DNA of 64,000 bases from a phage. Shown piece by piece: positions 16,049-60,656 of the stretch. Where the stretch lies: NCBI GenBank assembly GCA_012178725.1, contig GCA_012178725.1_3030.1; one strand, written 5' to 3'. Every line of letters begins with the position of its first letter. The first letter of the stretch is position 1. The notes under the pieces are model-generated. The model searched no databases, was not told where the DNA came from, and saw only the letters and a program-made list of their open reading frames with translations. The translations under genes were made by a program, and so were the position numbers.

Positions 16049-16296
16049 TGGAAGGTTTAATTGAAGCTATTAAATCAAACGACCTCGTAGCCGCTCGTAA
16101 ATTATTTGCTGAAGCCATGGCTGCAAGAACGATTGATTTAATTAAAGAAGAAAAAATCGCTATCGCTCGTAATTTCTTAATCGAAGGTGAAGAACCTGAT
16201 GACGAGGATGATGACGAAGACGAAGATAGTGATGATAAAGACGACAAAAAAGACAAAGATTCTGATGAAGATGACGAAGACGAGGATGATGAATAA
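16048..16296 (+). CDS. 67: Prohead core protein gp67, acidic C-terminal tail
   Basis: 82 aa; Asp/Glu-rich tail; position between 20 and 68. Confidence 0.85.
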
Positions 16297-22763: not shown

Positions 22764-24182
22764 TTATGGATAGGTATAGACGATACCAGTTTCTAAAGCA
22801 GTTTTATGAATGATGTATCCATTACGTGATTCTTGAACATCAACTTCTGGATAGTCTTTCATCATCTTCTGGAGAGTGTAACGATGCAAGTAGTACTTAC
22901 TATCTGGATCGTCAGTTTTCCAATCTTTACCTTCTTCAGTCATTTTTTGGATTTCATCCATAACCCACCAACCGCACCAGATGTAAGCTGAAGTACGATG
23001 TGGAAGAGGATGAACATAAGGCAATTCACCTTCTGGCTCTGGAGCAACTTTATCAGTCACTTGAACTTGACCTTCTGCTGTAATAGTTTTGCTATCATAA
23101 TCAGCAGCAGTAACAGTTGCAGTAACTTCAATAGTTTGACTTCCAATAGATGAGGTATCAACGGTATATACATTAGTTGACCCTTCTACAGGAGAAGAAT
23201 CTTTCTTCCATGAATACGCAATTTGCGCTTCTTCTGGAGCATCAGTGACATTAGCAGTAAATGTAGCCGAAGCATCTTGTTGAACGTTAATAGAAGGAGG
23301 AGTCAATGTAACCTGTGGATTCATTGTCTTCTTATTAACTGTTAATGATACTTCATTCGAAGTAACTTCCTTTTCATTGTAATTTTCAGCAGTTACTTGG
23401 GCTACGCATTTAATTCTTTTTACTCCACTTGTAGTTGGAGTATAGATAAATGTAGAGTTAGTTTCTCCACCAACTTGTGAATCATCTACATACCACTGAT
23501 ACGTAGCAGATGCTCCATCAGGTTGAGAAGCTAAGGCAGCAGTAAATTGAACTAGTGTTCCAATTACTCCAGCTGAAGGACTATCGGGAGTTACTGCCAA
23601 AGTAGTTGTCTGTGTCTTTTTATTAACAGTCAATGACACTTCATTAGAAGTAACTTCTTTTGCATCATAATCTGTCGCGGTTACTTGAGCCACACACTTG
23701 ATTGTTTTAACTCCGCTTGTGTCAGGAGTGTAATTGAATGTAGCGCTAGTCGCTTCGCTCACAGGAGAACCGTCAACGTACCATTGATACGTAGCAGATG
23801 CGCCTGATGGCTGCGAAGCCAAAGCAGCGGTAAATTCAACAGCTGTTCCGATTACTCCTTCCGGAGGACTATTAGGAGTTACAGCTAAGGTAGTCGTTTG
23901 TGTCTTATTTTGAACTGTGATAGTTGTACTAATTTCAGCTGTTTCGGGACTACTATCGGCAACTTGATTTGTTGCAACTACTTTAATAGTCTTTTGACCG
24001 GCAGGTCCTTTTAATACATAACTAAAAGTTGCTTCAGCCCCATCTTGTGGAACATCATCTACAGTCCAAGCATATGTAATAGGTCCATCTCCAGTTTGAC
24101 CACTGGGCGTAGCAGTAAACTGCTGAGTCTGATCTATAACTCCAGTAGGTGTTTTAGGAGTTATATCAACTGTAAAAGCCAT
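22764..24182 (-). CDS. hoc: Hoc (highly immunogenic outer capsid protein), four Ig-like domains plus capsid-binding C-terminus
   Basis: 472 aa; repeated about 96-aa Ig-like units; position between rnlB and inh. Confidence 0.9.
   Translation of the reverse strand: MAFTVDITPKTPTGVIDQTQQFTATPSGQTGDGPITYAWTVDDVPQDGAEATFSYVLKGPAGQKTIKVVATNQVADSSPETAEISTTITVQNKTQTTTLAVTPNSPPEGVIGTAVEFTAALASQPSGASATYQWYVDGSPVSEATSATFNYTPDTSGVKTIKCVAQVTATDYDAKEVTSNEVSLTVNKKTQTTTLAVTPDSPSAGVIGTLVQFTAALASQPDGASATYQWYVDDSQVGGETNSTFIYTPTTSGVKRIKCVAQVTAENYNEKEVTSNEVSLTVNKKTMNPQVTLTPPSINVQQDASATFTANVTDAPEEAQIAYSWKKDSSPVEGSTNVYTVDTSSIGSQTIEVTATVTAADYDSKTITAEGQVQVTDKVAPEPEGELPYVHPLPHRTSAYIWCGWWVMDEIQKMTEEGKDWKTDDPDSKYYLHRYTLQKMMKDYPEVDVQESRNGYIIHKTALETGIVYTYP
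23322..23897 (-). repeat. Tandem direct duplication (2 x 288 bp) inside hoc encoding two near-identical Ig-like domains
   Basis: Protein residues 96-191 and 192-287 are near-identical (TTTLAVTP...SNEVSLTVNKKT). Confidence 0.85.
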
Positions 24183-35058: not shown

Positions 35059-35062
35059 CAAT

Positions 35063-35080
35063 GGGGACCTTTCGGTCCCC
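35063..35080. terminator. Intrinsic terminator ggggacc-tttc-ggtcccc plus T-rich tract after gene 54
   Basis: Perfect 7-bp stem followed by atatttttattt. Confidence 0.7.
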
Positions 35081-35086
35081 ATATTT

Positions 35087-35377
35087 TTATTTACGGAATG
35101 AAATGAAAGCAGAAACTGAAGCAACTAAACTGTCTTCAATATAAACTTCAATTTTTACCGGAGCTTCTGACTCAAATTTACCTGTTACTACACCCTGAAA
35201 AATACTTTCAGTTTGTTCTGGCTTTGAAAAATTTTCAGAAGGAAAAATTCCGAACTTTTTATCTGTTCCAAAAATTTTAATAAATTCATCGTAAACTGCT
35301 TCATTAAAAGCATTATCAGCAGGAATAACGCCTTCAACTACAAGTTCTTGACCTAAAAAGCGCAAAGAAGATTTCAT
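35087..35377 (-). CDS. Hypothetical protein (alt.-3 position)
   Basis: 96 aa ORF with GAGGAA Shine-Dalgarno and its own early promoter. Confidence 0.6.
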   Translation of the reverse strand: MKSSLRFLGQELVVEGVIPADNAFNEAVYDEFIKIFGTDKKFGIFPSENFSKPEQTESIFQGVVTGKFESEAPVKIEVYIEDSLVASVSAFISFRK

Positions 35378-35404
35378 TTTGTGTTCCTCATGTTATGTCA
35401 GTAA

Positions 35405-35440
35405 GACTACTATAACACAACATAAGGGACTTGTAAACTA
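35405..35440 (-). promoter_or_regulatory. Early promoter GTTTAC-N18-TGtTATAGT (T4 early class)
   Basis: -35 GTTTAC at 35433-35438 and extended -10 at 35409-35417 on the minus strand. Confidence 0.6.
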
Positions 35441-37495
35441 CATTTTGAACTTTTTAGACATTCCGTTGATGTTAACCAAAGAAGCCAAGATTTGAGAAAC
35501 TTCGTTTTCCTCTTCTTTTGATTCTTCTACAAGAAATTGATTAAATCCAGCCATTGGACGAACTTCACCAGTTTCCATTAAATGGTCGCCATCATATACC
35601 GATTCCTCTAATTGTTCAGAAGGAGGAACGATTGTACCTTCGATTAGATACTTGTTATAAGCAGTTTCTTTCATAAAGTACGTACTTACTTTATTAATCT
35701 TCAGTAAAATTCCACGCGGTAGAATAACTTCAGCTTCTGATGGAAATCCTGATAAATGACCTGGAACGATAACTTTGATTCGCTCAGCTCCTTTAATTAC
35801 CATACCCACGCTAGTTTCAGCATCTTCATTAGCATATGTAGAATGACTACCCATATGCATCAAATCTTCTGCGTCAACTGAACCTTCTCCTTCACCAGAA
35901 AATACTGCGCCGGAATCATCTAGAGCCATATAGTTTTTACCATGCTCACCGAAGATATTTGGTTTAAGAGATGTGGATACGAAGTTCTTGAAATAGAACA
36001 TTTTGTTTTCAATGTTATGACGCAAAGTTTTAAAGGTAACTTCTTGTCCGCGATAAAGCGTAGTTCCTGGAGGAAGAACTGAACCTTTAGCGAATGCAGA
36101 ATCCAACGTCTCGATGTGCTTAATAGCTCGTTCCATATATTCTTCACGGGTAGAATCTGGTTTACCCAAAAGGAACGAGTTCATTTCAACATATGAATCT
36201 GCACAATAATCTTCAATTACATCAGATTCGGCCTGAGTCAGTCCTTTTGGAGTTACTTCAGTGCTTGCGTATTCATATGCCTGGGCAGCAGATTCATTAA
36301 TCAATTTATAAATGCCATTCATGACAAATTGAATAATAGCTGTCTTTTCATCTGGCGTAGCTTTAGAACCTTTAACTAAATCATTAATAATTTTCTTAAT
36401 AACATCAAAGCTATTAGAAATATTAATGTCAGCAAGATCGCTTAAAATTTTATCAGTTTTATAATCAAAGAATTCTTTATTCTTTAAATATTCTTGAGAA
36501 CCTTGATATGTTATATCGCTCTGCAACTTGATAGATGGATCACGTAAACGTGCGTGGGCCAATGCAATATGATTTCGGAAGTTTTCTAGTTCATAATCGC
36601 TAGATTTAAAACGAGAAGCACTTCTCATACCACCGATAGCTCCTTTGCTGAAGTTTGAACCAATCTGGATAACGCCAGAGTTCATCGGACCTTCTGCTTT
36701 ATATACCGGAACTTTAGATTCAAACTCTTGATATTTCTTTGCAGCGAAGCTATCACCCTGAAGTGAAGCATCGACAGTAGAATATTGAGCTTGTGCTGCT
36801 AATCGACGACTAATTTTAGTTTTTTGAATAACAGCTTGATCCGTGCGCTTATCATTTTCTAAAGCAATAGAAGCAGCAACAGCGACAGCTTTAGGAACAG
36901 CATTACCTGTTTTAACATCTACATAAACATCACCGACCTTTGATTCAACTTTTGTGAATAACTCAGTTGAAATAGGAGGTACACCTGGAATGTCTTCTAA
37001 ATTGGCATTTTTACGGTAAACCATAATATATGCATATTTCTTATCATAGTCCCAGATTTCCTTTAAAAGAACATATCGACCTGCTCCTTTAGTACGTACT
37101 AAACGGTCAGCAATAACTTGCATTTGACGAGCAGCGCCATTTGTTTTACTCTTTAGTACACGGAATAAGCACGCGTCAATTTTATACTGCTTCATTGTTT
37201 GAAGAGCAGTATCAAAAACAGCATTAATGACGCCAATTGGATTTCCACCCAAGTTTCTAAGCTTAACCAGTGATAATTTCTCGTTGACACCTATCATTAC
37301 GATATGCATCATTTTATCGCCTGGCTTAACGTTTTTATTTGTATCACCACCAGAGGTGTATGTACAAAATCTAAATCCAGGAAGCACGCTTTCTTCGCCG
37401 GCTTGAATAGCAAAAATTTGTGGTATTTTATGCTTAGGATTTAAGTTAACAACCGGCGCCGAAGCGCCGTCAAATAATTCTGTAATAAGTTCCAT
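35438..37495 (-). CDS. Alt-like ADP-ribosyltransferase paralog (distal copy)
   Basis: 685 aa; MELITELFD N-terminus; conserved YRGQ and FYFKNFVSTSL ART-like motifs; C-terminal VYDGDHLMETGE shared with the adjacent Alt. Confidence 0.85.
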   Translation of the reverse strand: MELITELFDGASAPVVNLNPKHKIPQIFAIQAGEESVLPGFRFCTYTSGGDTNKNVKPGDKMMHIVMIGVNEKLSLVKLRNLGGNPIGVINAVFDTALQTMKQYKIDACLFRVLKSKTNGAARQMQVIADRLVRTKGAGRYVLLKEIWDYDKKYAYIMVYRKNANLEDIPGVPPISTELFTKVESKVGDVYVDVKTGNAVPKAVAVAASIALENDKRTDQAVIQKTKISRRLAAQAQYSTVDASLQGDSFAAKKYQEFESKVPVYKAEGPMNSGVIQIGSNFSKGAIGGMRSASRFKSSDYELENFRNHIALAHARLRDPSIKLQSDITYQGSQEYLKNKEFFDYKTDKILSDLADINISNSFDVIKKIINDLVKGSKATPDEKTAIIQFVMNGIYKLINESAAQAYEYASTEVTPKGLTQAESDVIEDYCADSYVEMNSFLLGKPDSTREEYMERAIKHIETLDSAFAKGSVLPPGTTLYRGQEVTFKTLRHNIENKMFYFKNFVSTSLKPNIFGEHGKNYMALDDSGAVFSGEGEGSVDAEDLMHMGSHSTYANEDAETSVGMVIKGAERIKVIVPGHLSGFPSEAEVILPRGILLKINKVSTYFMKETAYNKYLIEGTIVPPSEQLEESVYDGDHLMETGEVRPMAGFNQFLVEESKEEENEVSQILASLVNINGMSKKFKM

Positions 37496-37498
37496 GAT

Positions 37499-39550
37499 TT
37501 ATCCTTGAACGAACTTGTAAGGCATGTTTGCAATATCTATGCAAGACGCAATAATTCCAAGAGATGATTCTACTTTCTGTTTAACATTTGATGAAACAAA
37601 TGATGCAAAGTCAACTCTATCTTCTATATCACCTGTCATTGTAACCAATTCACCAGTTTCCATTAAATGGTCTCCGTCATAGATTACCGATTCGGTGAGT
37701 TCTTCTGTGGTCATAACTTCAGCTTGAATAAGCTTGTTGTTAGTTTTAACTGTTCCATCATTGTAAGATGCATCGGTTATTTTATTAACTTTGACCATTA
37801 ATCCACGTGGCAAAATGACTTCCATTTCATTTGAAGGCGCTAAACTTCCACCGGGTAAAACAACATTGACCTTATCAGCCCCAGTAATAACCCATCCAAT
37901 TCCGACTAAATTATCGCTAGAATTAACAAGCCCTTCATCATTTTTATCGATAGAAATGTTTAGACGCTTTTCATCTGGTAAAACACCAATAGCTGAATCA
38001 GTCATCCAAGTACCAAAAATGTTTGGATATAATGATGTTGATACAAAATTTCTAAAATAAAAAACTCGATTTTTTACCAATGTTTCATATATTGAAGGTA
38101 ACATTCGCTGTGAACGATATAAAGTAATACCCTTTGGCAATCGATCACCATTTTTAAAGGCTGAATCTAAATTATCGATGGCTTGTTCTATTTCAGGTGC
38201 TGTTAAAATACTTGTACGCTCATCTGGATTATATAATCCCAAAAGAGCATTATTCATGTCTACATATCCTGAACCTACATATTCACGAATTCCGCGTTTT
38301 TGCGCTGGTGTGTATTTAGATGAATCTTTATTTTCGACTATAGAATGCAATGACCATCCAACAGTAAGAGCATATCCACGTAATTCTCTTCGAATAATCT
38401 TTGTTTTTATTGCATTCCAAGAATTTTGCACTAACTCATTATTCGCAGCGTCTTGATTTAAATGCGAATGCTTGTTAATATTTCTTTCTAACCAAGCACC
38501 TTTATATTTTTCTAAAGTATCATCGACTATAGAAGCAATAGTTTCTAAAGTTTTTATTGAAGTAATAGATTCTTTTCGTAATCTTTCTAAAGCTTTATTT
38601 TTTATTTCTGTATTAACATCAGTTTCTTTATCTTCAGGAATTATAGAAGCTTCTCTGAATGCCATTCCAGCTGTAACACTATTAAGAGCATTCTCTAATG
38701 CAAATCCTGAAGTAGAAATAACAGTTAATTCATTAGCATCAGAAATTAAAGGAGCGTCAGCAGGTTTATTTAATTCTGCTGCTGAAGCCTCAAATTTTTG
38801 AAACATCGGTGTTTCAAATCTAGAAGATTCCAATGACTGACTTTGTGCAATTGCTCTACGTGAAATTTTAACTTTAACGATTACAGCTTGGTCAGAACGT
38901 TTATCATTTTCTTGTGCAATAGATGCTGCAATTGCCTCATTTTTAGTTACTTGAGCTCCAGTATCTTTATTGATATAAACATCGCCGACTTTCGATTCAA
39001 CTTTAGTAAAGAGCTCGGTACTAATTTCCGGAACTCCTGGAATGTCTTCTAGTGATACATTTTTGCGATGTATAAGAATATATGCATACTTTTTATCATA
39101 ATCCCAGAGTTCCTTAAGAAGGACGTATCTGCCACCTGAACGACTACGGATAAGTCTATCAGCAATAACTTGAATTTGTCGAGCTTGGCCAGCAGTTTTA
39201 GACTTAAGAATACGAAGCATACAAGCATCAATTTTATACTGACGCATTGTTTGCATTGCAACAGTAAAAACTGAATTGATATAATTAATTGGGCTTGGAC
39301 CAAGACCTTTTAATTTAGCAATTGAACCTTTAGCAGTTAATGTAAAAGGAACAATATGCATCATTTTATCGCCCATTTTTAAATCACGATTAGTATCACC
39401 TCCAGATGTATAGGTACATAAACGAAAGCCTGGTTGTTCAATTGCATCATCAACATGAACTGAAAAAATTTGTGGTATTTTCTTCTTTGGATTTAAGTTT
39501 GTAATCGGAAGAGTAGTATCTTCGTCAAATAATTCTGTAATGAGTTCCAT
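37499..39550 (-). CDS. alt: Alt ADP-ribosyltransferase (head-packaged; modifies host RNA polymerase)
   Basis: About 683 aa from MELITELFDEDTTLPITNLNPKKK; YRSQ and FYFRNFVSTSL motifs; late promoter upstream. Confidence 0.9.
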   Translation of the reverse strand: MELITELFDEDTTLPITNLNPKKKIPQIFSVHVDDAIEQPGFRLCTYTSGGDTNRDLKMGDKMMHIVPFTLTAKGSIAKLKGLGPSPINYINSVFTVAMQTMRQYKIDACMLRILKSKTAGQARQIQVIADRLIRSRSGGRYVLLKELWDYDKKYAYILIHRKNVSLEDIPGVPEISTELFTKVESKVGDVYINKDTGAQVTKNEAIAASIAQENDKRSDQAVIVKVKISRRAIAQSQSLESSRFETPMFQKFEASAAELNKPADAPLISDANELTVISTSGFALENALNSVTAGMAFREASIIPEDKETDVNTEIKNKALERLRKESITSIKTLETIASIVDDTLEKYKGAWLERNINKHSHLNQDAANNELVQNSWNAIKTKIIRRELRGYALTVGWSLHSIVENKDSSKYTPAQKRGIREYVGSGYVDMNNALLGLYNPDERTSILTAPEIEQAIDNLDSAFKNGDRLPKGITLYRSQRMLPSIYETLVKNRVFYFRNFVSTSLYPNIFGTWMTDSAIGVLPDEKRLNISIDKNDEGLVNSSDNLVGIGWVITGADKVNVVLPGGSLAPSNEMEVILPRGLMVKVNKITDASYNDGTVKTNNKLIQAEVMTTEELTESVIYDGDHLMETGELVTMTGDIEDRVDFASFVSSNVKQKVESSLGIIASCIDIANMPYKFVQG

Positions 39551-39573
39551 CATATCCTCTCTAGTGTTTATTC

Positions 39574-39581
39574 TATTTATA
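39574..39581 (-). promoter_or_regulatory. Late promoter core TATAAATA upstream of alt
   Basis: Exact motif on the minus strand, preceded by a GC hairpin at about 39585-39600. Confidence 0.55.
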
Positions 39582-39602: not shown

Positions 39603-39791
39603 TTAATAATCTATTGGTAAGAGAGTACGATATATTTCAAACTTTGGACCTTTTTCATAGGCATCAAAAGTTTCTGTGAATTTATTATAAGCATATGCAT
39701 CTATAAATTCAATCATGATTTGTGATACAGAAGTAGAAACATCTCCACCTTCTTTTTGAGCCACGACAATTGTTTCTAAGTAAGCTTTCAT
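39603..39791 (-). CDS. Hypothetical small protein (alt.1 position)
   Basis: 62 aa ORF coupled to the ligase stop. Confidence 0.5.
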   Translation of the reverse strand: MKAYLETIVVAQKEGGDVSTSVSQIMIEFIDAYAYNKFTETFDAYEKGPKFEIYRTLLPIDY

Positions 39792-41251
39792 AAACCAGTT
39801 ACCTCATGAAAATCACCAAATACATCTTCGAATGTATTAGCTTTAGTTTTATCTTCACGTAAACGAATCGCAATCGGAAGAAATAATTTAACGTAATCAG
39901 TGCGGCCATCAGATTTTAACCAACCGTTGCATTCGCACTCTAGAATTTTTCCAATATAATAATTTTGGTTTTCCATAATGCGAGTACGGTCAAGTTCATG
40001 CGATTTTACACCGGCTTTATCTTTTAAGCCTGAACCAGCATTTACTTTAATTTTTCCACACTCTGATTCAAGAATAAATCCACCCGCTTTAGTAGGGTCT
40101 TTACGGTGAGGATAAATTCCTACAATTTTTAAATCAACATCAATTACTTCTTTAAATTTATAGAGATTTTTTGAACGAGCATTTTCCCATAATCCATCGA
40201 TATTTTTGAGAATAATACCTTCAAGACCTTGGTCAATATATTTTTTATAAATTACCTTAGCTTCATTTAGGTTATTTACTACCTGGTTTTCAATTAAAAT
40301 TACTTTATCATATCCTGATGTCATTTGTTCTAGTTTAGAAAAACGTACATCATATTTTAAACGAAACGCTGGAAGACCGTATATTTCTACCAACGGGACA
40401 TAATCCCAGACCTGAAACTTCATACATTGAGCTTCTTTTTCAGAAATGGTTCCTTTTAAGGATTTATTGGCGATTCCATTAGAAGTAGTACGAGATTCCG
40501 CTACTTCGGCGAATTCTTTAGCTTTACTAATTTCAGGATAAGCATCAAAAAGAAAATCTAGGCCTTCTGGTTCCTTTTTAACTTGCTCATGGTATACCAA
40601 TTCGCCATCAATTAACACACCTTCTGGATGAATCTGGCGGGCTTCAGCAGTCATTTTGATTAACTCTTCTTTAAGAAGATCTAATCCTAGATATTCATTA
40701 CCAGCTCGTGATAAAAGACGAACATCATCTAATTCATCGCCTCGGACTTCAGCAAAACACCGAGCTCCATCAGCTTTTAACTGCGCAAAAGCTGGAAACT
40801 TGATATTCTTACTAATGCCTTTTTCATCATAAGAACTTGCCAGCATTTGAGGTTGTTCAGGAATTAAACCTGGCCAAACTTTGTTTGCAATAGATACTGA
40901 AGCACCGCATTCAAGGTCTCGCATCATAACTCGACGCAAAACTTCAACATCATCCTTTTTACCATCGGTGATATATCCAGTTAATTCCTCAATTGCTGCA
41001 TTGCCAGTTAATTTCCGAGTAGCTAACGTGAATTCAATGAAGTCAAGCATATCGGTAATAGTCAGCATTCCAAAACTCTGGGTAGCAATACCAGGTTTAG
41101 GCCATTTCTTGATATAATACTGCAACCCACGAGAATAAGTTAAACGATATACTCGTTTAAGCAATTCATTATCTTTATTCTTTTCAAGAATTGCTTGCTT
41201 CTGCTTAGTTGAACCAATAGATGCTATTTCGTTCAGAATTTTAAGAATCAT
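39788..41251 (-). CDS. 30: ATP-dependent DNA ligase gp30
   Basis: 487 aa; MILKILNEIASIGSTKQKQAILEKNKDNELL... with KADGAR adenylation motif. Confidence 0.97.
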   Translation of the reverse strand: MILKILNEIASIGSTKQKQAILEKNKDNELLKRVYRLTYSRGLQYYIKKWPKPGIATQSFGMLTITDMLDFIEFTLATRKLTGNAAIEELTGYITDGKKDDVEVLRRVMMRDLECGASVSIANKVWPGLIPEQPQMLASSYDEKGISKNIKFPAFAQLKADGARCFAEVRGDELDDVRLLSRAGNEYLGLDLLKEELIKMTAEARQIHPEGVLIDGELVYHEQVKKEPEGLDFLFDAYPEISKAKEFAEVAESRTTSNGIANKSLKGTISEKEAQCMKFQVWDYVPLVEIYGLPAFRLKYDVRFSKLEQMTSGYDKVILIENQVVNNLNEAKVIYKKYIDQGLEGIILKNIDGLWENARSKNLYKFKEVIDVDLKIVGIYPHRKDPTKAGGFILESECGKIKVNAGSGLKDKAGVKSHELDRTRIMENQNYYIGKILECECNGWLKSDGRTDYVKLFLPIAIRLREDKTKANTFEDVFGDFHEVTGL

Positions 41252-43934: not shown

Positions 43935-43966
43935 TATATAATATCATATCCTGTACCAAAGTAAAC
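43935..43966 (-). promoter_or_regulatory. Early promoter GTTTAC-N17-TGaTATTAT
   Basis: -35 at 43961-43966, -10 at 43938-43943 (minus strand). Confidence 0.6.
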
Positions 43967-43970
43967 TATT

Positions 43971-44339
43971 TTATGCAACTTTAATCCAATTATCTAAATT
44001 TAATTCACCTTTGGCTTTCATTTTTTCAATCAAGAGGTCAGCGGTAATACGACCATTTTGATACCACGTAACATCTTCAGAGTAACCAGTTTCTTTATCT
44101 TCATAAGTCTCACAACGAATTTTACCAATAATCAAAGTTTTCAATTCGTATGTATCTCCAGTAAAAAAGTTAGTTAACATTATTTTCCAAGAGAAATCAT
44201 CAGAAGGACCTTCAGGAGTCATGCAACCTACAAATTCAAATTGTTCTTTGTATAAGTGCCACTGAAGTTCTTTAGTTTCGATAGCTTTATAGCCGTCGTG
44301 ATCTTTACCTTTGATGTATGAGTTAAGATTGATTTTCAT
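43971..44339 (-). CDS. Hypothetical protein
   Basis: 122 aa. Confidence 0.6.
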   Translation of the reverse strand: MKINLNSYIKGKDHDGYKAIETKELQWHLYKEQFEFVGCMTPEGPSDDFSWKIMLTNFFTGDTYELKTLIIGKIRCETYEDKETGYSEDVTWYQNGRITADLLIEKMKAKGELNLDNWIKVA

Positions 44340-44364
44340 TTTATTCTCCTTTGTTTGTGTAAGA

Positions 44365-44397
44365 TAATACTATCACAAAGGAACTATACTGTAAACA
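44365..44397 (-). promoter_or_regulatory. Early promoter-like GTTTAC with a weak -10 (TAGTAT)
   Basis: -35 GTTTAC at 44392-44397. Confidence 0.4.
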
Positions 44398-47905: not shown

Positions 47906-47935
47906 TAATATCACAACTCTACCGTAAAGTAAACT
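47906..47935 (-). promoter_or_regulatory. Early promoter GTTTAC-N18-TGaTATTAT
   Basis: -35 at 47930-47935, -10 at 47906-47911. Confidence 0.6.
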
Positions 47936-50353: not shown

Positions 50354-50703
50354 TTAGAAAGGTCCTGGATGTCTTCTGCGAACTTGTTGAAGGAGTTATT
50401 GATTTGTTTTTCAACCAATCCTGGCTTATGAGCCACCACATCCGCCTTCTTTGCGTCTTTGCGCAGTTTTTCATTTTCACGCTCAATAGCAGCAATTGCC
50501 TCACGATTTTTATTATTCATCGCATCAATATAATTATACTGAATTCGCAAATTATTTAATGCTAAGGCGTTTTCATTGGCCGTTTTTGTAATTTCAGTAA
50601 CCGATGTTTCTAATCTTTCTACCTTATTTTTTAAAATAATAGATGTTCCGCCAAATACTATTACAAGTAATAGCAAACCTGCTGTCGTATTACTTAATTG
50701 CAT
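50350..50703 (-). CDS. pseT.3: Inner-membrane spanin (Rz-like), N-terminal TM anchor and coiled coil
   Basis: 117 aa; hydrophobic GLLLLVIVFGGTSIIL then coiled-coil periplasmic region; directly upstream of the lipoprotein gene. Confidence 0.75.
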   Translation of the reverse strand: MQLSNTTAGLLLLVIVFGGTSIILKNKVERLETSVTEITKTANENALALNNLRIQYNYIDAMNNKNREAIAAIERENEKLRKDAKKADVVAHKPGLVEKQINNSFNKFAEDIQDLSK

Positions 50704-51197
50704 AAAGTTTTAATAACCTCTATAATATCGTCTTGAGAAAGACCGTTAATTAAAATATGATGTTCCGCCGGAGATTTAGAAATTTTAAAGCATGCCGCAA
50801 CATCTTCTGCCATATCCGATGCGCTACGATTTGGATTACTAATTCCAAGACGATGTTTTCCCGTTAAAGGATTAACGATGATATAGCATTTACAGCTATT
50901 GATATGAACATTAGGTTGAGTCTGATTAATGAACACTTCACAATCATACTTAGCGAGTTGATTTTCTAAAAAGACTTTCATCTCTTCAACCGCATCAGGA
51001 AGCATATCACGGGCTTGCTCAAGACGACGATTTCGATATTCTTTAATGGTCGTTTTCCGCTTGACTTGCTTAGCTAAATCTTTCTTAAGATCGGTGATAT
51101 ATCCAACTCGACGATTTCCTTTAAATACAGAAATCCCATCTGTAGTATCACCGTATGCTTCAACGACCATTTCAGTAGTAATAAGCTGCAAATCCAT
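50694..51197 (-). CDS. alc: Alc (blocks host transcription on cytosine-containing DNA)
   Basis: 167 aa from MDLQLITTEMVVEAYGDTTDG... Confidence 0.9.
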   Translation of the reverse strand: MDLQLITTEMVVEAYGDTTDGISVFKGNRRVGYITDLKKDLAKQVKRKTTIKEYRNRRLEQARDMLPDAVEEMKVFLENQLAKYDCEVFINQTQPNVHINSCKCYIIVNPLTGKHRLGISNPNRSASDMAEDVAACFKISKSPAEHHILINGLSQDDIIEVIKTLCN

Positions 51198-51228
51198 CAT
51201 AAAGTCCTCATGTTATGTCAGTAAGATT

Positions 51229-51258
51229 ACTATAACACAACACGAGGGACTTGTAAAC
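51229..51258 (-). promoter_or_regulatory. Early promoter GTTTAC-N18-TGtTATAGT; near-identical to the element at 35405-35440
   Basis: -35 at 51253-51258, -10 at 51229-51234. Confidence 0.6.
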
Positions 51259-51261
51259 AGC

Positions 51262-52849
<1,588 letters not shown>

Positions 52850-59459: not shown

Positions 59460-59489
59460 ATTATATCATAGCCCCATTTAGTTGTACAC
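59460..59489 (-). promoter_or_regulatory. Early promoter GTGTAC-N18-TGaTATAAT
   Basis: -35 at 59484-59489, -10 TATAAT at 59460-59465. Confidence 0.55.
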
Positions 59490-59901: not shown

Positions 59902-59931
59902 TATAGTATCATTACCATAGCCCGTTGTAAA
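59902..59931 (-). promoter_or_regulatory. Early promoter GTTTAC-N18-TGaTACTAT
   Basis: -35 at 59926-59931. Confidence 0.5.
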
Positions 59932-60626: not shown

Positions 60627-60656
60627 ATAGTACCATGGAAGGACAAGGATGTAAAC
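60627..60656 (-). promoter_or_regulatory. Early promoter GTTTAC-N18-TGgTACTAT
   Basis: -35 at 60651-60656. Confidence 0.5.

What the first reader, a model, noticed from the sequence alone, without database searches (positions are those of the whole stretch)
35378..35440. Near-identical early promoter plus leader cassette repeated at two distant loci
About 55 nt at 35384-35438 and 51204-51258 are nearly identical, with about 4 mismatches. On the minus strand each reads GTTTAC-N18-TGtTATAGT followed by the same leader (tcttactgacataacatgagga) and Shine-Dalgarno, then runs into an unrelated ORF: the alt.-3-position ORF in one case and alc in the other. Typical early promoters here (43935-43966, 47906-47935, 59460-59489, 59902-59931, 60627-60656) share only the -35/-10 framework. 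Conservation extending through the transcribed leader suggests a duplicated or transposed regulatory cassette, resembling the promoter-early stem-loop modules proposed to shuffle genes in T4-type phages, or a shared post-transcriptional control site.
Basis: seen in the sequence. Interest (0 to 1): 0.4.

Follow-up and report, generated by a model that had tools for sequence, protein, structure and literature searches.

The report
Early promoter nested in ribosome-site-masking hairpin

Summary
The repeat is real. It is 54 nt on the minus strand, at 35385-35438 and 51205-51258, with 3 mismatches. About 500 Tequatrovirus genomes, T4 included, carry exactly two copies each.

The similarity runs past the -35/-10 boxes because the unit is one long hairpin. 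The promoter spacer and -10 form the 5' arm. The predicted start site lies just 3' of the 4-nt apical loop. The leader and Shine-Dalgarno form the 3' arm.

- **Read-through RNA** folds at -27.3 kcal/mol (alc, z -5.4) and -21.2 kcal/mol (alt.-3). Opening the ribosome site costs 13-18 kcal/mol.
- **RNA started at the embedded promoter** lacks the 5' arm. Opening costs about 4.6 kcal/mol.

At the rnlA-alc junction the same layout recurs in at least six Tevenvirinae genera, with different but complementary arms. 92.7% of cells are paired and 9 of 13 pairs show compensatory changes, beating shuffled and slid controls.

In other genera the alt.-3 promoter has a different small spacer hairpin. The Tequatrovirus alt.-3 copy therefore came from the alc cassette by ectopic exchange, bounded by GTTTACA and ATGAGGA.

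The cassette is a PeSL-type element. It works like the T4 e/soc/49/I-TevI hairpins, but with an early rather than a late promoter inside. No start-site or translation data were available.

The parts
51205..51258 (-). Repeat copy 2 (alc cassette, the presumed donor), lying between the rnlA stop (51262-51264) and alc
   Evidence: The same position carries a promoter-hairpin in other genera.
35385..35438 (-). Repeat copy 1 (alt.-3 cassette). The stop codon TAG of the distal alt paralogue (35438-35440) overlaps the first G of GTTTAC.
51252..51257 (-). -35 hexamer TTTACA of the alc promoter
51229..51237 (-). Extended -10 of the alc promoter, TGtTATAGT. It lies inside the 5' arm of the hairpin.
51228..51252 (-). 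5' arm of the alc hairpin (spacer plus -10): AAGUCC.C.UCGUGUUGUGUU..AGUA
51224..51227 (-). Apical loop AUCU. The predicted start site, A at 51222 (7 nt after the -10), is the second base of the 3' arm, two bases 3' of the loop.
   Evidence: for the structure. The start site is inferred from sigma-70 spacing and is not measured.
51202..51223 (-). 3' arm of the alc hairpin: the leader plus Shine-Dalgarno GAGGA (51205-51209) plus CUU. Pairing continues 3 bp beyond the repeat.
50694..51197 (-). alc (167 codons from the second ATG, as annotated in T4; an in-frame ATG also lies at 51198-51200)
35432..35437 (-). -35 hexamer TTTACA of the alt.-3 promoter
35409..35417 (-). Extended -10 of the alt.-3 promoter, TGtTATAGT
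35408..35430 (-). 5' arm of the alt.-3 hairpin
35383..35403 (-). 3' arm of the alt.-3 hairpin, including Shine-Dalgarno GAGGA (35385-35389). The predicted start site is A at 35402.
35087..35377 (-). alt.-3 homologue (96 aa)
39574..39581 (-). Late-promoter motif TATAAATA, 20 nt upstream of the first alt gene. It is the likely source of late transcripts that read through both alt genes into alt.-3.
   Evidence: No terminator-like site lies between it and alt.-3 on this strand.
35061..35082 (.). Bidirectional terminator-like hairpin that ends the alt/alt.-3 unit and gene 54

Best explanation
Each copy is a strong sigma-70 early promoter embedded in a hairpin-forming sequence.

**Mechanism.**
- On RNA that enters from upstream, the spacer/-10 segment pairs with the leader/Shine-Dalgarno segment. 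For alc this upstream RNA is the delayed-early or middle transcript through rnlA. For alt.-3 it is the late transcript through the alt genes. The pairing masks the ribosome-binding site.
- RNA polymerase starting at the embedded promoter begins just 3' of the 4-nt apical loop, at the second base of the 3' arm. Its transcript carries only the 3' arm and has an open ribosome site.
- Translation of alc and alt.-3 is therefore tied to their own early promoter. It should stop when early promoters shut off, even though the genes keep being transcribed.

**Origin of the second copy.** The alc cassette is ancestral in Tevenvirinae. In the Tequatrovirus ancestor it replaced the resident alt.-3 promoter by ectopic homologous exchange between the short motifs both promoters share, GTTTACA and (AC)ATGAGGA.

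**What is shown and what is inferred.**
- Shown computationally: the repeat, the hairpin, its covariation, the difference in RBS opening energy, and the different alt.-3 promoter type in outgroups.
- Inferred: the start-site position, the existence and amount of read-through RNA, the effect on translation in vivo, and the direction and mechanism of the exchange.
For: **Folding.** Read-through RNA folds at -27.3 kcal/mol (z -5.4, 0 of 200 shuffles) at alc and -21.2 kcal/mol (z -3.4) at alt.-3. A 39-nt RNA starting five bases upstream of the predicted start site (repeat position 32, at the apical loop) is unstructured, with z about +0.3.

**Ribosome-site accessibility.**
- P(unpaired) of GAGGA at alc is 0.03 on read-through RNA and 0.78 on promoter-proximal RNA.
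- RBS opening energy at alc is 17.9 versus 4.6 kcal/mol, and at alt.-3 12.8 versus 4.7 kcal/mol.
- In nine outgroup lineages it is 10-17 versus 2.7-6.7 kcal/mol.

**Conservation across genera.** The same layout sits at the rnlA-alc junction in Karamvirus, Gelderlandvirus, Jiaodavirus, Dhakavirus, Winklervirus and unnamed lineages. The arms differ in sequence but stay complementary, for example TCCTCATTTTGTTG/CAACAAAATGAGGA and TCTCCGTTTAGT/ACTAAACGGAGA. Thirty-four of 41 distinct sequences have z <= -3.3.

**Covariation.**
- Cognate arms pair best in 13 of 14 hairpin lineages, with a mean of -16.8 against -9.1 kcal/mol for non-cognate arms.
- The pair count gives 92.7% paired against 74.7% shuffled (0 of 500 shuffles as high). 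Nine of 13 pairs change on both sides. The covariation score is 0.506 against 0.181 (0 of 500). Slid controls give 35-49%.

**RNA rather than DNA.** In Tequatrovirus three G.U pairs make the sense RNA 9 kcal/mol more stable than the antisense. Natural variants sit in loops or bulges, or are mostly wobble-preserving: C11U, C15U, G16A, G40A, A54G.

**Read-through is plausible.**
- No terminator-like site lies between the upstream genes and either cassette, and a late-promoter motif lies upstream of alt.
- Rnl1 and Pnk, which flank alc, are delayed-early (PMC3014915).

**Donor direction.**
- Outgroup alt.-3 promoters carry a spacer-internal hairpin.
- Pairing extends 3 bp beyond the repeat only at alc.

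**Precedent.** T4 genes e, soc, 49 and I-TevI use a promoter inside an RBS-masking hairpin (PMC3014915).
Against: - No transcription-start, RNA-structure or translation data for these sites could be found in the searchable literature. The key steps therefore rest on prediction.
- Several lineages lack RBS masking at alc. Mosigvirus and three others have only a spacer hairpin. In L043, L050 and L060 the stem ends just 5' of the Shine-Dalgarno. Masking is thus common but dispensable.
- At alt.-3 the Shine-Dalgarno is also predicted to be partly paired, to a weak local stem, in the promoter-proximal RNA. P(unpaired) is 0.18.
- The covariation alignment was fitted to the model structure.
- Ribosomes terminating at the upstream stop codon, 9-10 nt from the stem, could partly open it.
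- Older T4 literature (Miller et al. 2003; the 1994 T4 book) could not be read and may already mention this.
Confidence: 0.6

Rival explanations
1. PeSL reading as published: the stem-loop is a terminator, attenuator or 3'-end stabiliser for the upstream transcript and insulates transcription units. Its overlap with the Shine-Dalgarno would be incidental to packing signals into about 60 nt.
For: - Arbiol et al. measured terminator-like activity for one RB49 PeSL stem-loop. They list stem-loops between -35 and -10, or overlapping the -10, as the commonest layouts.
- Other early promoters in the window have hairpins around the -10 that do not reach the Shine-Dalgarno: 43966, 47934, 59489, 59932.
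- In three alc lineages the stem stops short of the Shine-Dalgarno.
Against: - No U-tract follows the stem in any lineage. The tails are A-rich or mixed: GAGAAAACGAAAUG, GGAUAUUGAAAUG.
- The terminator scan does not call either site.
- In 34 of 41 distinct alc sequences the predicted structure is significantly stable (z <= -3.3). The 3' arm covers the GGAG/GAGG core in all 22 CM-aligned non-Tequatrovirus rows and in the Tequatrovirus copies. In L043, L050 and L060 the stem stops just 5' of it. Transcription insulation does not require that.
- pseT, downstream of alc, is delayed-early, which implies transcription passes through.
Confidence: 0.2
2. Two copies of an unusually good promoter with no RNA-level role. 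The 54-nt identity would reflect a recent copy event, gene conversion, or selection on spacer and initial-transcribed sequence for promoter strength (for example the response to Alt-modified polymerase).
For: - Overall divergence among Tequatrovirus genomes is only 2-5%, so 0-5 differences in 54 nt is not by itself evidence of constraint.
- G28 and UFV09 have identical copies at both loci, carrying the same A29/A32 variants.
- T4 early promoters are known to have consensus positions beyond -35/-10 (PMC2988021).
Against: - Across genera the sequence of both arms changes while complementarity is kept. That selects for pairing, not for a particular promoter sequence.
- Within-genome distance between the copies equals between-genome distance (2.47 versus 2.53, permutation p = 0.42). 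Ongoing homogenisation is therefore not the general cause.
Confidence: 0.1
3. The hairpin is an RNase III (or other endonuclease) processing site. It would separate upstream and downstream cistrons, and cleavage would liberate or inactivate the ribosome site.
For: The Tequatrovirus stem is about 22 bp with one bulge and a small internal loop, which is in the size range of RNase III substrates.
Against: - Stems in the other genera are 13-21 bp in total, with only 9-14 bp in the conserved outer helix, and the apical part is irregular.
- No Rfam family matched.
- The term 'RNase III' does not occur in the T4 post-transcriptional review (PMC3014915; 0 occurrences).
Confidence: 0.05
4. A DNA-level element: an inverted repeat that extrudes as a cruciform, or serves as a recombination hotspot that shuffles genes (PeSL mini-circle model).
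For: - The cassette has moved between loci at least once. A Dhakavirus contig shows an independent leader exchange between the same two loci.
- Rearrangements sit next to both copies: the T4 deletion of the distal alt paralogue and the G28 351-bp tandem duplication.
Against: - Outside Tequatrovirus the conserved helix encloses 20-25 nt, which disfavours cruciform extrusion.
- Three G.U pairs in Tequatrovirus work only in sense RNA.
- The 13-16 kb between the direct repeats holds essential genes (30, 31), so deletion products are inviable.
- Recombination use does not explain arm covariation.
Confidence: 0.05

Closest known systems
T4 RBS-masking hairpins with an internal promoter (genes e, soc, 49, I-TevI; also mobE, segB)
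   Same: The Shine-Dalgarno or AUG is sequestered in a helix on transcripts coming from upstream. A promoter is placed so that its own transcript lacks the 5' strand of the helix and is translated (PMC3014915).
   Different: - In those cases the embedded promoter is a late one (TATAAATA), or a middle one, and the effect is to delay translation. Here it is a sigma-70 early promoter, and the predicted effect is to confine translation to the immediate-early period.
- Here the 5' strand of the helix is the promoter's own spacer and -10.
- alc and alt.-3 are not among the cases that review lists as examples, and 'alc' does not occur in it.
PeSL (promoter-early stem-loop) cassettes of T4-type phages (Arbiol et al. 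2010; Comeau et al. 2014)
   Same: - Intergenic unit running from stop codon through AT-rich stretch, sigma-70 -35/-10, stem-loop and Shine-Dalgarno to ATG.
- The stem-loop may lie between the boxes or overlap the -10.
- The units act as sites of homologous exchange, with crossovers between the -10 and Shine-Dalgarno boxes.
   Different: - The published role of the stem-loop is terminator or attenuator. Translation and Shine-Dalgarno sequestration are not discussed.
- Here the stem is much longer (about 22 bp) and its 3' arm is the Shine-Dalgarno.
- Only the control region was copied, not a flanked ORF.
- The two copies are 15.8 kb apart across essential genes rather than flanking an ORFan in a hyperplastic region.
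Lambda-type and operon-type translational control by long-range RBS masking (e.g. RNA-phage coat/replicase coupling, Q-beta; PMC2978339)
   Same: Hairpin stability at the ribosome site sets the initiation rate.
   Different: Those systems are opened by ribosome transit or by processing. Here the open or closed state is set by which promoter made the RNA.

Membership tests
PeSL cassette | Intergenic position between the stop codon of one gene and the start codon of the next | tested here: met
   The rnlA stop lies 3 nt before the -35. The alt-paralogue stop overlaps the -35. The ATG lies 7 nt after the Shine-Dalgarno.
PeSL cassette | Sigma-70-like -35 and -10 boxes (T4/PST type: TTTACW-N17-TAYWAT) | tested here: met
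   TTTACA-17-TATAGT with TGn. TATAGT deviates from TAYWAT at position 5, and the G28/T2 variants read TATAAT.
PeSL cassette | Stable stem-loop within or next to the promoter | tested here: met
   -27.3 and -21.2 kcal/mol, z -5.4 and -3.4. The stem overlaps the spacer and the -10.
PeSL cassette | AT-rich stretch upstream of the -35 | tested here: inconclusive
   The upstream 30 nt are A/T-rich at both sites, but they are coding sequence.
PeSL cassette | Stem-loop terminates or attenuates upstream transcription | not testable with these tools
   There is no U-tract, and the terminator scan does not call either site. Activity needs an experiment.
PeSL cassette | Mediates exchange or indels between cassettes (mini-circles, ORF swaps) | tested here: inconclusive
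   Comparative evidence supports cassette exchange between the alc and alt.-3 loci in Tequatrovirus, one Dhakavirus and probably Mosigvirus. No ORF swap was seen and no mini-circle data exist.
Promoter-in-hairpin translational gate (e/soc/49/I-TevI class) | Shine-Dalgarno and/or AUG paired in a stable helix on upstream-initiated RNA | tested here: met
   P(unpaired Shine-Dalgarno) is 0.03 (alc) and 0.20 (alt.-3). Opening energy is 17.9 and 12.8 kcal/mol. This is prediction only.
Promoter-in-hairpin translational gate (e/soc/49/I-TevI class) | A promoter positioned so that its transcript lacks the 5' strand of the helix | tested here: met
   The -10 lies in the 5' arm. The predicted +1 (7 nt after the -10) is the second base of the 3' arm. 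The start site is not measured.
Promoter-in-hairpin translational gate (e/soc/49/I-TevI class) | The embedded promoter is a late (gp55, TATAAATA) promoter giving late-only translation | tested here: not met
   There is no TATAAATA at either site. The embedded promoter is of the early sigma-70 type.
Promoter-in-hairpin translational gate (e/soc/49/I-TevI class) | Experimentally shown inhibition of translation on long transcripts | not testable with these tools
   No data were found in the searchable literature.
Any curated RNA family (Rfam 15) | Covariance-model match at or above the gathering score | tested here: not met
   The best hits score far below gathering (20.7 versus 140 bits) at site 1, and there are none at site 2.

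The most novel reading that the evidence does not exclude
T-even phages may use 'promoter-gated translation' as a general early-gene shut-off device. The anti-Shine-Dalgarno strand is placed in the spacer of an early promoter, so a gene stays translatable only while that promoter fires. Immediate-early proteins such as Alc would then stop being made when early promoters are switched off, although delayed-early, middle or late transcripts keep crossing the gene. That would supply part of the still unexplained decline of early protein synthesis. It would also mean PeSL stem-loops encode translational as well as transcriptional insulation. At least three promoters in this window (alc, alt.-3, 30.8) would belong to the class.
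Probability: 0.35. Interest if true: 0.65.

Novelty: new variant of a known kind. Interest (0 to 1): 0.5.

Why it matters
**Consequences if the mechanism holds.**
- It adds the mirror image to a textbook T4 mechanism. Known hairpins let only late transcripts be translated. This one would let only immediate-early transcripts be translated.
- It gives a concrete, testable cis-element for how synthesis of an early host-takeover protein (Alc) is limited in time.
- It re-reads the stem-loops of PeSL cassettes as translational insulators.

**What already stands on sequence evidence.**
- It explains why a promoter can be conserved base-for-base through its spacer and leader.
- It documents repeated exchange of control cassettes between two fixed loci in different genera.

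**Practical use.** The 54-nt unit is a compact part that makes a gene's translation depend on which promoter produced the mRNA.

Tried and rejected
- **Homology of the downstream proteins.** A short E[LM]VVE[GA] match suggested it, but BLASTP found nothing.
- **Further copies.** None in the window, none in whole Tequatrovirus genomes apart from G28's local tandem duplication, and only 8 exact-pattern hits in IMG/VR, all at the same two loci.
- **General concerted evolution of the two copies.** Not supported. In 17 genomes the within-genome distance was 2.47 and the between-genome distance 2.53, with p = 0.42. Only G28 and UFV09 look homogenised.
- **RNAalifold on a plain MAFFT alignment.** It gave no structure because the arms are out of register between genera. 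This was solved with a covariance model and with an alignment-free cognate versus non-cognate duplex test.
- **Leader mini-ORF.** ATG AGG ... TGA overlaps the start codon as ATGA at both sites. It has no Shine-Dalgarno of its own and is not conserved in Karamvirus, Jiaodavirus or Dhakavirus alc leaders, so it was dropped.
- **RegB target.** The Tequatrovirus Shine-Dalgarno is GAGGA, with no GGAG.
- **MotA box or late promoter at the sites.** Absent.
- **Rfam.** Nothing.
- **Literature.** Miller et al. 2003 (PMC150520) and Drivdahl & Kutter 1990 (PMC208917) are not held. No T4 start-site map was found.

Full report
**What the window is.** The window is a Tequatrovirus (T4-like) genome segment, about 98% identical to the best GenBank records. 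Around the finding, the minus strand carries these genes in transcription order:
- gene 30, at 39788-41251;
- a small ORF;
- two full-length alt paralogues, at 37499-39553 and 35438-37495;
- a 96-aa alt.-3 homologue, at 35087-35377.

This unit ends at a bidirectional terminator-like hairpin at 35061-35082, facing gene 54. The second site lies between rnlA (51262-52422) and alc (50694-51197/51200).

A 54-nt segment is present at 35385-35438 and 51205-51258 on the minus strand, with 3 mismatches. No such match occurred in 100 shuffles. Alignment with flanks shows that similarity stops immediately 5' of GTTTAC and immediately 3' of GAGGA. The two downstream proteins are unrelated by BLASTP.

Across the phage collection, 500 records hold 999 copies, so there are two per genome, all in Tequatrovirus. 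In T4 the copies differ by one base. The single genome with three copies, G28, has a local 351-bp tandem duplication of the rnlA 3' end, the cassette and the alc 5' end.

**Promoter anatomy.** Both copies read TTTACA-17 nt-TATAGT with TG at -15/-14. This is the best promoter-like match in each neighbourhood and fits the T4 early-promoter pattern (consensus as described in PMC2988021). The predicted start, 7 nt after the -10, is the A at repeat position 37 (window 35402 and 51222). This is an inference. No start-site data could be found.

**Why the leader is conserved.** Folding the RNA that would cross each site from upstream gives one long hairpin.
- The 5' arm is the promoter spacer plus -10: AAGUCC.C.UCGUGUUGUGUU..AGUA.
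- The apical loop is 4 nt and ends two bases 5' of the predicted start site.
- The 3' arm is the leader plus Shine-Dalgarno: UACU-GACAUAACAUGA-GGACUU.
- At alc, dG is -27.3 kcal/mol (z -5.4; 0 of 200 shuffles as stable). At alt.-3 it is -21.2 kcal/mol (z -3.4).
- The 39-nt RNA tested, which begins five bases upstream of the predicted start site at the apical loop, is unstructured (-1.8 and -2.5 kcal/mol, z about +0.3).

Partition-function calculations on longer contexts point the same way.
- The alc Shine-Dalgarno is unpaired with probability 0.03 on read-through RNA and 0.78 on promoter-proximal RNA.
- The energy needed to open the ribosome-binding window is 17.9 versus 4.6 kcal/mol at alc, and 12.8 versus 4.7 kcal/mol at alt.-3.

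The 54 nt are therefore conserved as a unit because nearly every base is a promoter element, a ribosome-site element, or the partner of one.

**The alc copy is an old, covarying structure.** Alc homologues occur in many Straboviridae. I collected the rnlA-alc junction from six GenBank outgroups and from 42 IMG/VR loci.

Nearly all Tevenvirinae lineages have GTTTACA followed directly by a strand complementary to the alc Shine-Dalgarno region. The -10 and the predicted start lie in the loop. The arm sequences differ between lineages:

| Lineage | 5' arm / 3' arm |
|---|---|
| Gelderlandvirus | TCTCCGTTTAGT / ACTAAACGGAGA |
| Karamvirus | TCTCCATTTGG / CCAAATGGAGA |
| Jiaodavirus | TCCTCATCAG / CTGATGAGGA |
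| Dhakavirus | TCTCCTCAT / ATGAGGAGA |
| L032 | TCCTCATTTTGTTG / CAACAAAATGAGGA |
| Winklervirus | TCCTCATTTCGTT / AACGAAATGAGGA |
| L044 | ACCTCTCATTTT / AAAATGAGAGGT |

Thirty-four of 41 distinct sequences fold with z <= -3.3. Winklervirus folds at -26.9 kcal/mol with z -6.4.

Two covariation tests agree.
- **Alignment-free test.** The spacer of each lineage was paired with the leader of every lineage. The cognate partner is the best in its row for 13 of 14 hairpin lineages, with a mean of -16.8 against -9.1 kcal/mol.
- **Covariance-model alignment of 21 distinct non-Tequatrovirus sequences.**
  - 92.7% of cells are paired against 74.7% in shuffles (0 of 500 shuffles as high).
  - Nine of 13 pairs change on both sides.
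  - The covariation score is 0.506 against 0.181 (0 of 500).
  - Partners slid by 1-3 columns give only 35-49% paired (independent count).

The caveat is that this alignment was fitted to the model structure.

There are exceptions.
- Mosigvirus and three other lineages have only a small hairpin inside the spacer.
- In three lineages the stem ends just 5' of the Shine-Dalgarno.
- Acinetobacter and Aeromonas phages use other layouts.

**RNA rather than DNA.** In Tequatrovirus the stem contains three G.U pairs, so the sense RNA is about 9 kcal/mol more stable than the antisense. I examined 36 copies from the 17 Tequatrovirus genomes with both loci typed, plus UFV09.
- Variation falls in the bulge, the internal loop or the apical loop (positions 13, 27, 32-34).
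- Otherwise it is mostly pairing-preserving: C11U, C15U, G16A, G40A, A54G.
- Three variant types break a pair: G16U, G18A, G29A.
- The 3' arm, which is constrained both as ribosome site and as partner, is almost invariant.

Outside Tequatrovirus the conserved spacer-to-Shine-Dalgarno helix encloses 20-25 nt, which also argues against cruciform extrusion.

**Is there read-through?** No terminator-like site separates either cassette from the gene upstream on the minus strand. A late-promoter motif, TATAAATA, lies 20 nt upstream of the first alt gene at 39574-39581. This fits the fact that Alt is a virion protein (PMC2988021). Late RNA should therefore run through both alt genes into alt.-3. Rnl1, upstream of alc, and Pnk, downstream of it, are delayed-early products (PMC3014915). 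This implies long transcripts across alc after the immediate-early phase.

**Where the second copy came from.** alt.-3 homologues with the same gene neighbourhood exist in other genera. Their promoter also overlaps the alt stop codon. However, its spacer holds a self-contained small hairpin (for example ACACCACaaggatGTGGT) and no anti-Shine-Dalgarno strand.

The Tequatrovirus alt.-3 cassette is therefore of the alc type. Pairing at alc continues three base pairs beyond the repeat (AAG/CUU), and those pairs are lost at alt.-3. This too points to alc as the donor. The repeat ends at GTTTACA and (AC)ATGAGGA, motifs that both loci already share in the outgroups. That is what homologous exchange between PeSL-type cassettes would produce. 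Arbiol et al. mapped mini-circle crossovers between the -10 and Shine-Dalgarno boxes.

Exchange between these two loci seems to have recurred.
- One Dhakavirus contig has an identical 32-nt leader at alc and alt.-3, whereas its sister genomes do not.
- The Mosigvirus alc promoter resembles alt.-3-type promoters (75-78% identity) more than alc-type ones (54-70%).

Within Tequatrovirus, however, the two copies are no more alike within a genome than between genomes (2.47 versus 2.53 differences, p = 0.42). There is no general ongoing homogenisation. Only G28 and UFV09 have identical copies that share unusual variants.

**Comparison with what is known.** The cassette meets the structural definition of a PeSL. 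The PeSL papers treat the stem-loop as a terminator or attenuator and do not mention translation. No U-tract follows the stem here.

The mechanism proposed is that of the T4 e, soc, 49 and I-TevI leaders. There, a promoter inside an RBS-masking hairpin yields the only translatable transcript (PMC3014915). Those embedded promoters are late. Here the promoter is early, so the predicted outcome is reversed: translation only while the early promoter fires. The review's list of examples does not include alc, and alc is not mentioned anywhere in it. No Rfam family matches. I could not read the older T4 compilations, so prior mention cannot be excluded.

**Verdict.** The conserved leader is the complementary strand of the promoter itself. 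The alc copy is an ancient, covarying RNA structure, and the alt.-3 copy is a Tequatrovirus-specific replacement by it. The functional claim of promoter-gated translation rests on folding, covariation and analogy. It needs start-site mapping and translation assays.

Noticed in passing
L003 (phage G28) 4135-4539; corresponds to window about 51100-51400: A 351-bp tandem duplication comprising the last ~130 nt of rnlA, the whole 54-nt cassette and the first ~46 codons of alc. It gives a third, identical cassette copy and a truncated alc ORF.
   Followed up: partly
window 35438-37495 and 37499-39553 (minus strand): Two full-length alt paralogues in tandem. T4 itself keeps only the N-terminal remnants (alt.-1, alt.-2) of the distal one, with the last ~25 nt before the cassette retained.
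   Followed up: partly
window 44337-44396 (minus strand): The early-type promoter upstream of the 30.8-like ORF (43971-44339) has the same logic with an unrelated sequence. Spacer UUCCUUUGU pairs with ACAAAGGAG, which is the Shine-Dalgarno. Read-through dG is -14.5 kcal/mol (z -2.0), and the promoter-proximal RNA is unstructured. The covariance model built from alc loci also picks it up in T4, T2 and T6.
   Followed up: partly
window 43966, 47934, 59489, 59932 (minus strand, position of the G of GTTTAC/GTGTAC): Other early-type promoters sit in hairpins whose loop holds the -10, for example GGTACAGG...CCTGTACC and CGGTAGAG...CTCTACC. These stems do not reach the Shine-Dalgarno. They are probably the PeSL stem-loops of this genus.
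   Followed up: partly
window 35375-35391 and 51197-51211 (minus strand): A 4-5 codon mini-ORF (ATG AGG AAC ACA AAA TGA, and ATG AGG ACT TTA TGA) starts inside the Shine-Dalgarno arm and ends in an ATGA overlap with the start codon (at alc, the first of the two in-frame ATGs, 51198-51200). It is also seen in some outgroup leaders but not all, and it has no Shine-Dalgarno of its own. Judged coincidental.
   Followed up: partly
L048 and L077 (IMG/VR contig 2706795356, Dhakavirus-like): alc and alt.-3 share an identical 32-nt leader (ACCTTACACAAACATGAGGAGAACATTATGAA) in this genome only. This is an independent exchange between the same two loci, in the opposite direction.
   Followed up: partly
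window 39574-39581 (minus strand): Late-promoter motif TATAAATA 20 nt upstream of the first alt start codon.
   Followed up: no
window 23325-23900: Two tandem 288-nt units, 75% identical. This could be a repeated protein domain, but it was not examined.
   Followed up: no
window 16188-16292: Cluster of GAT/GAA/GAC-rich 27-nt repeats, which would encode an acidic low-complexity stretch.
   Followed up: no
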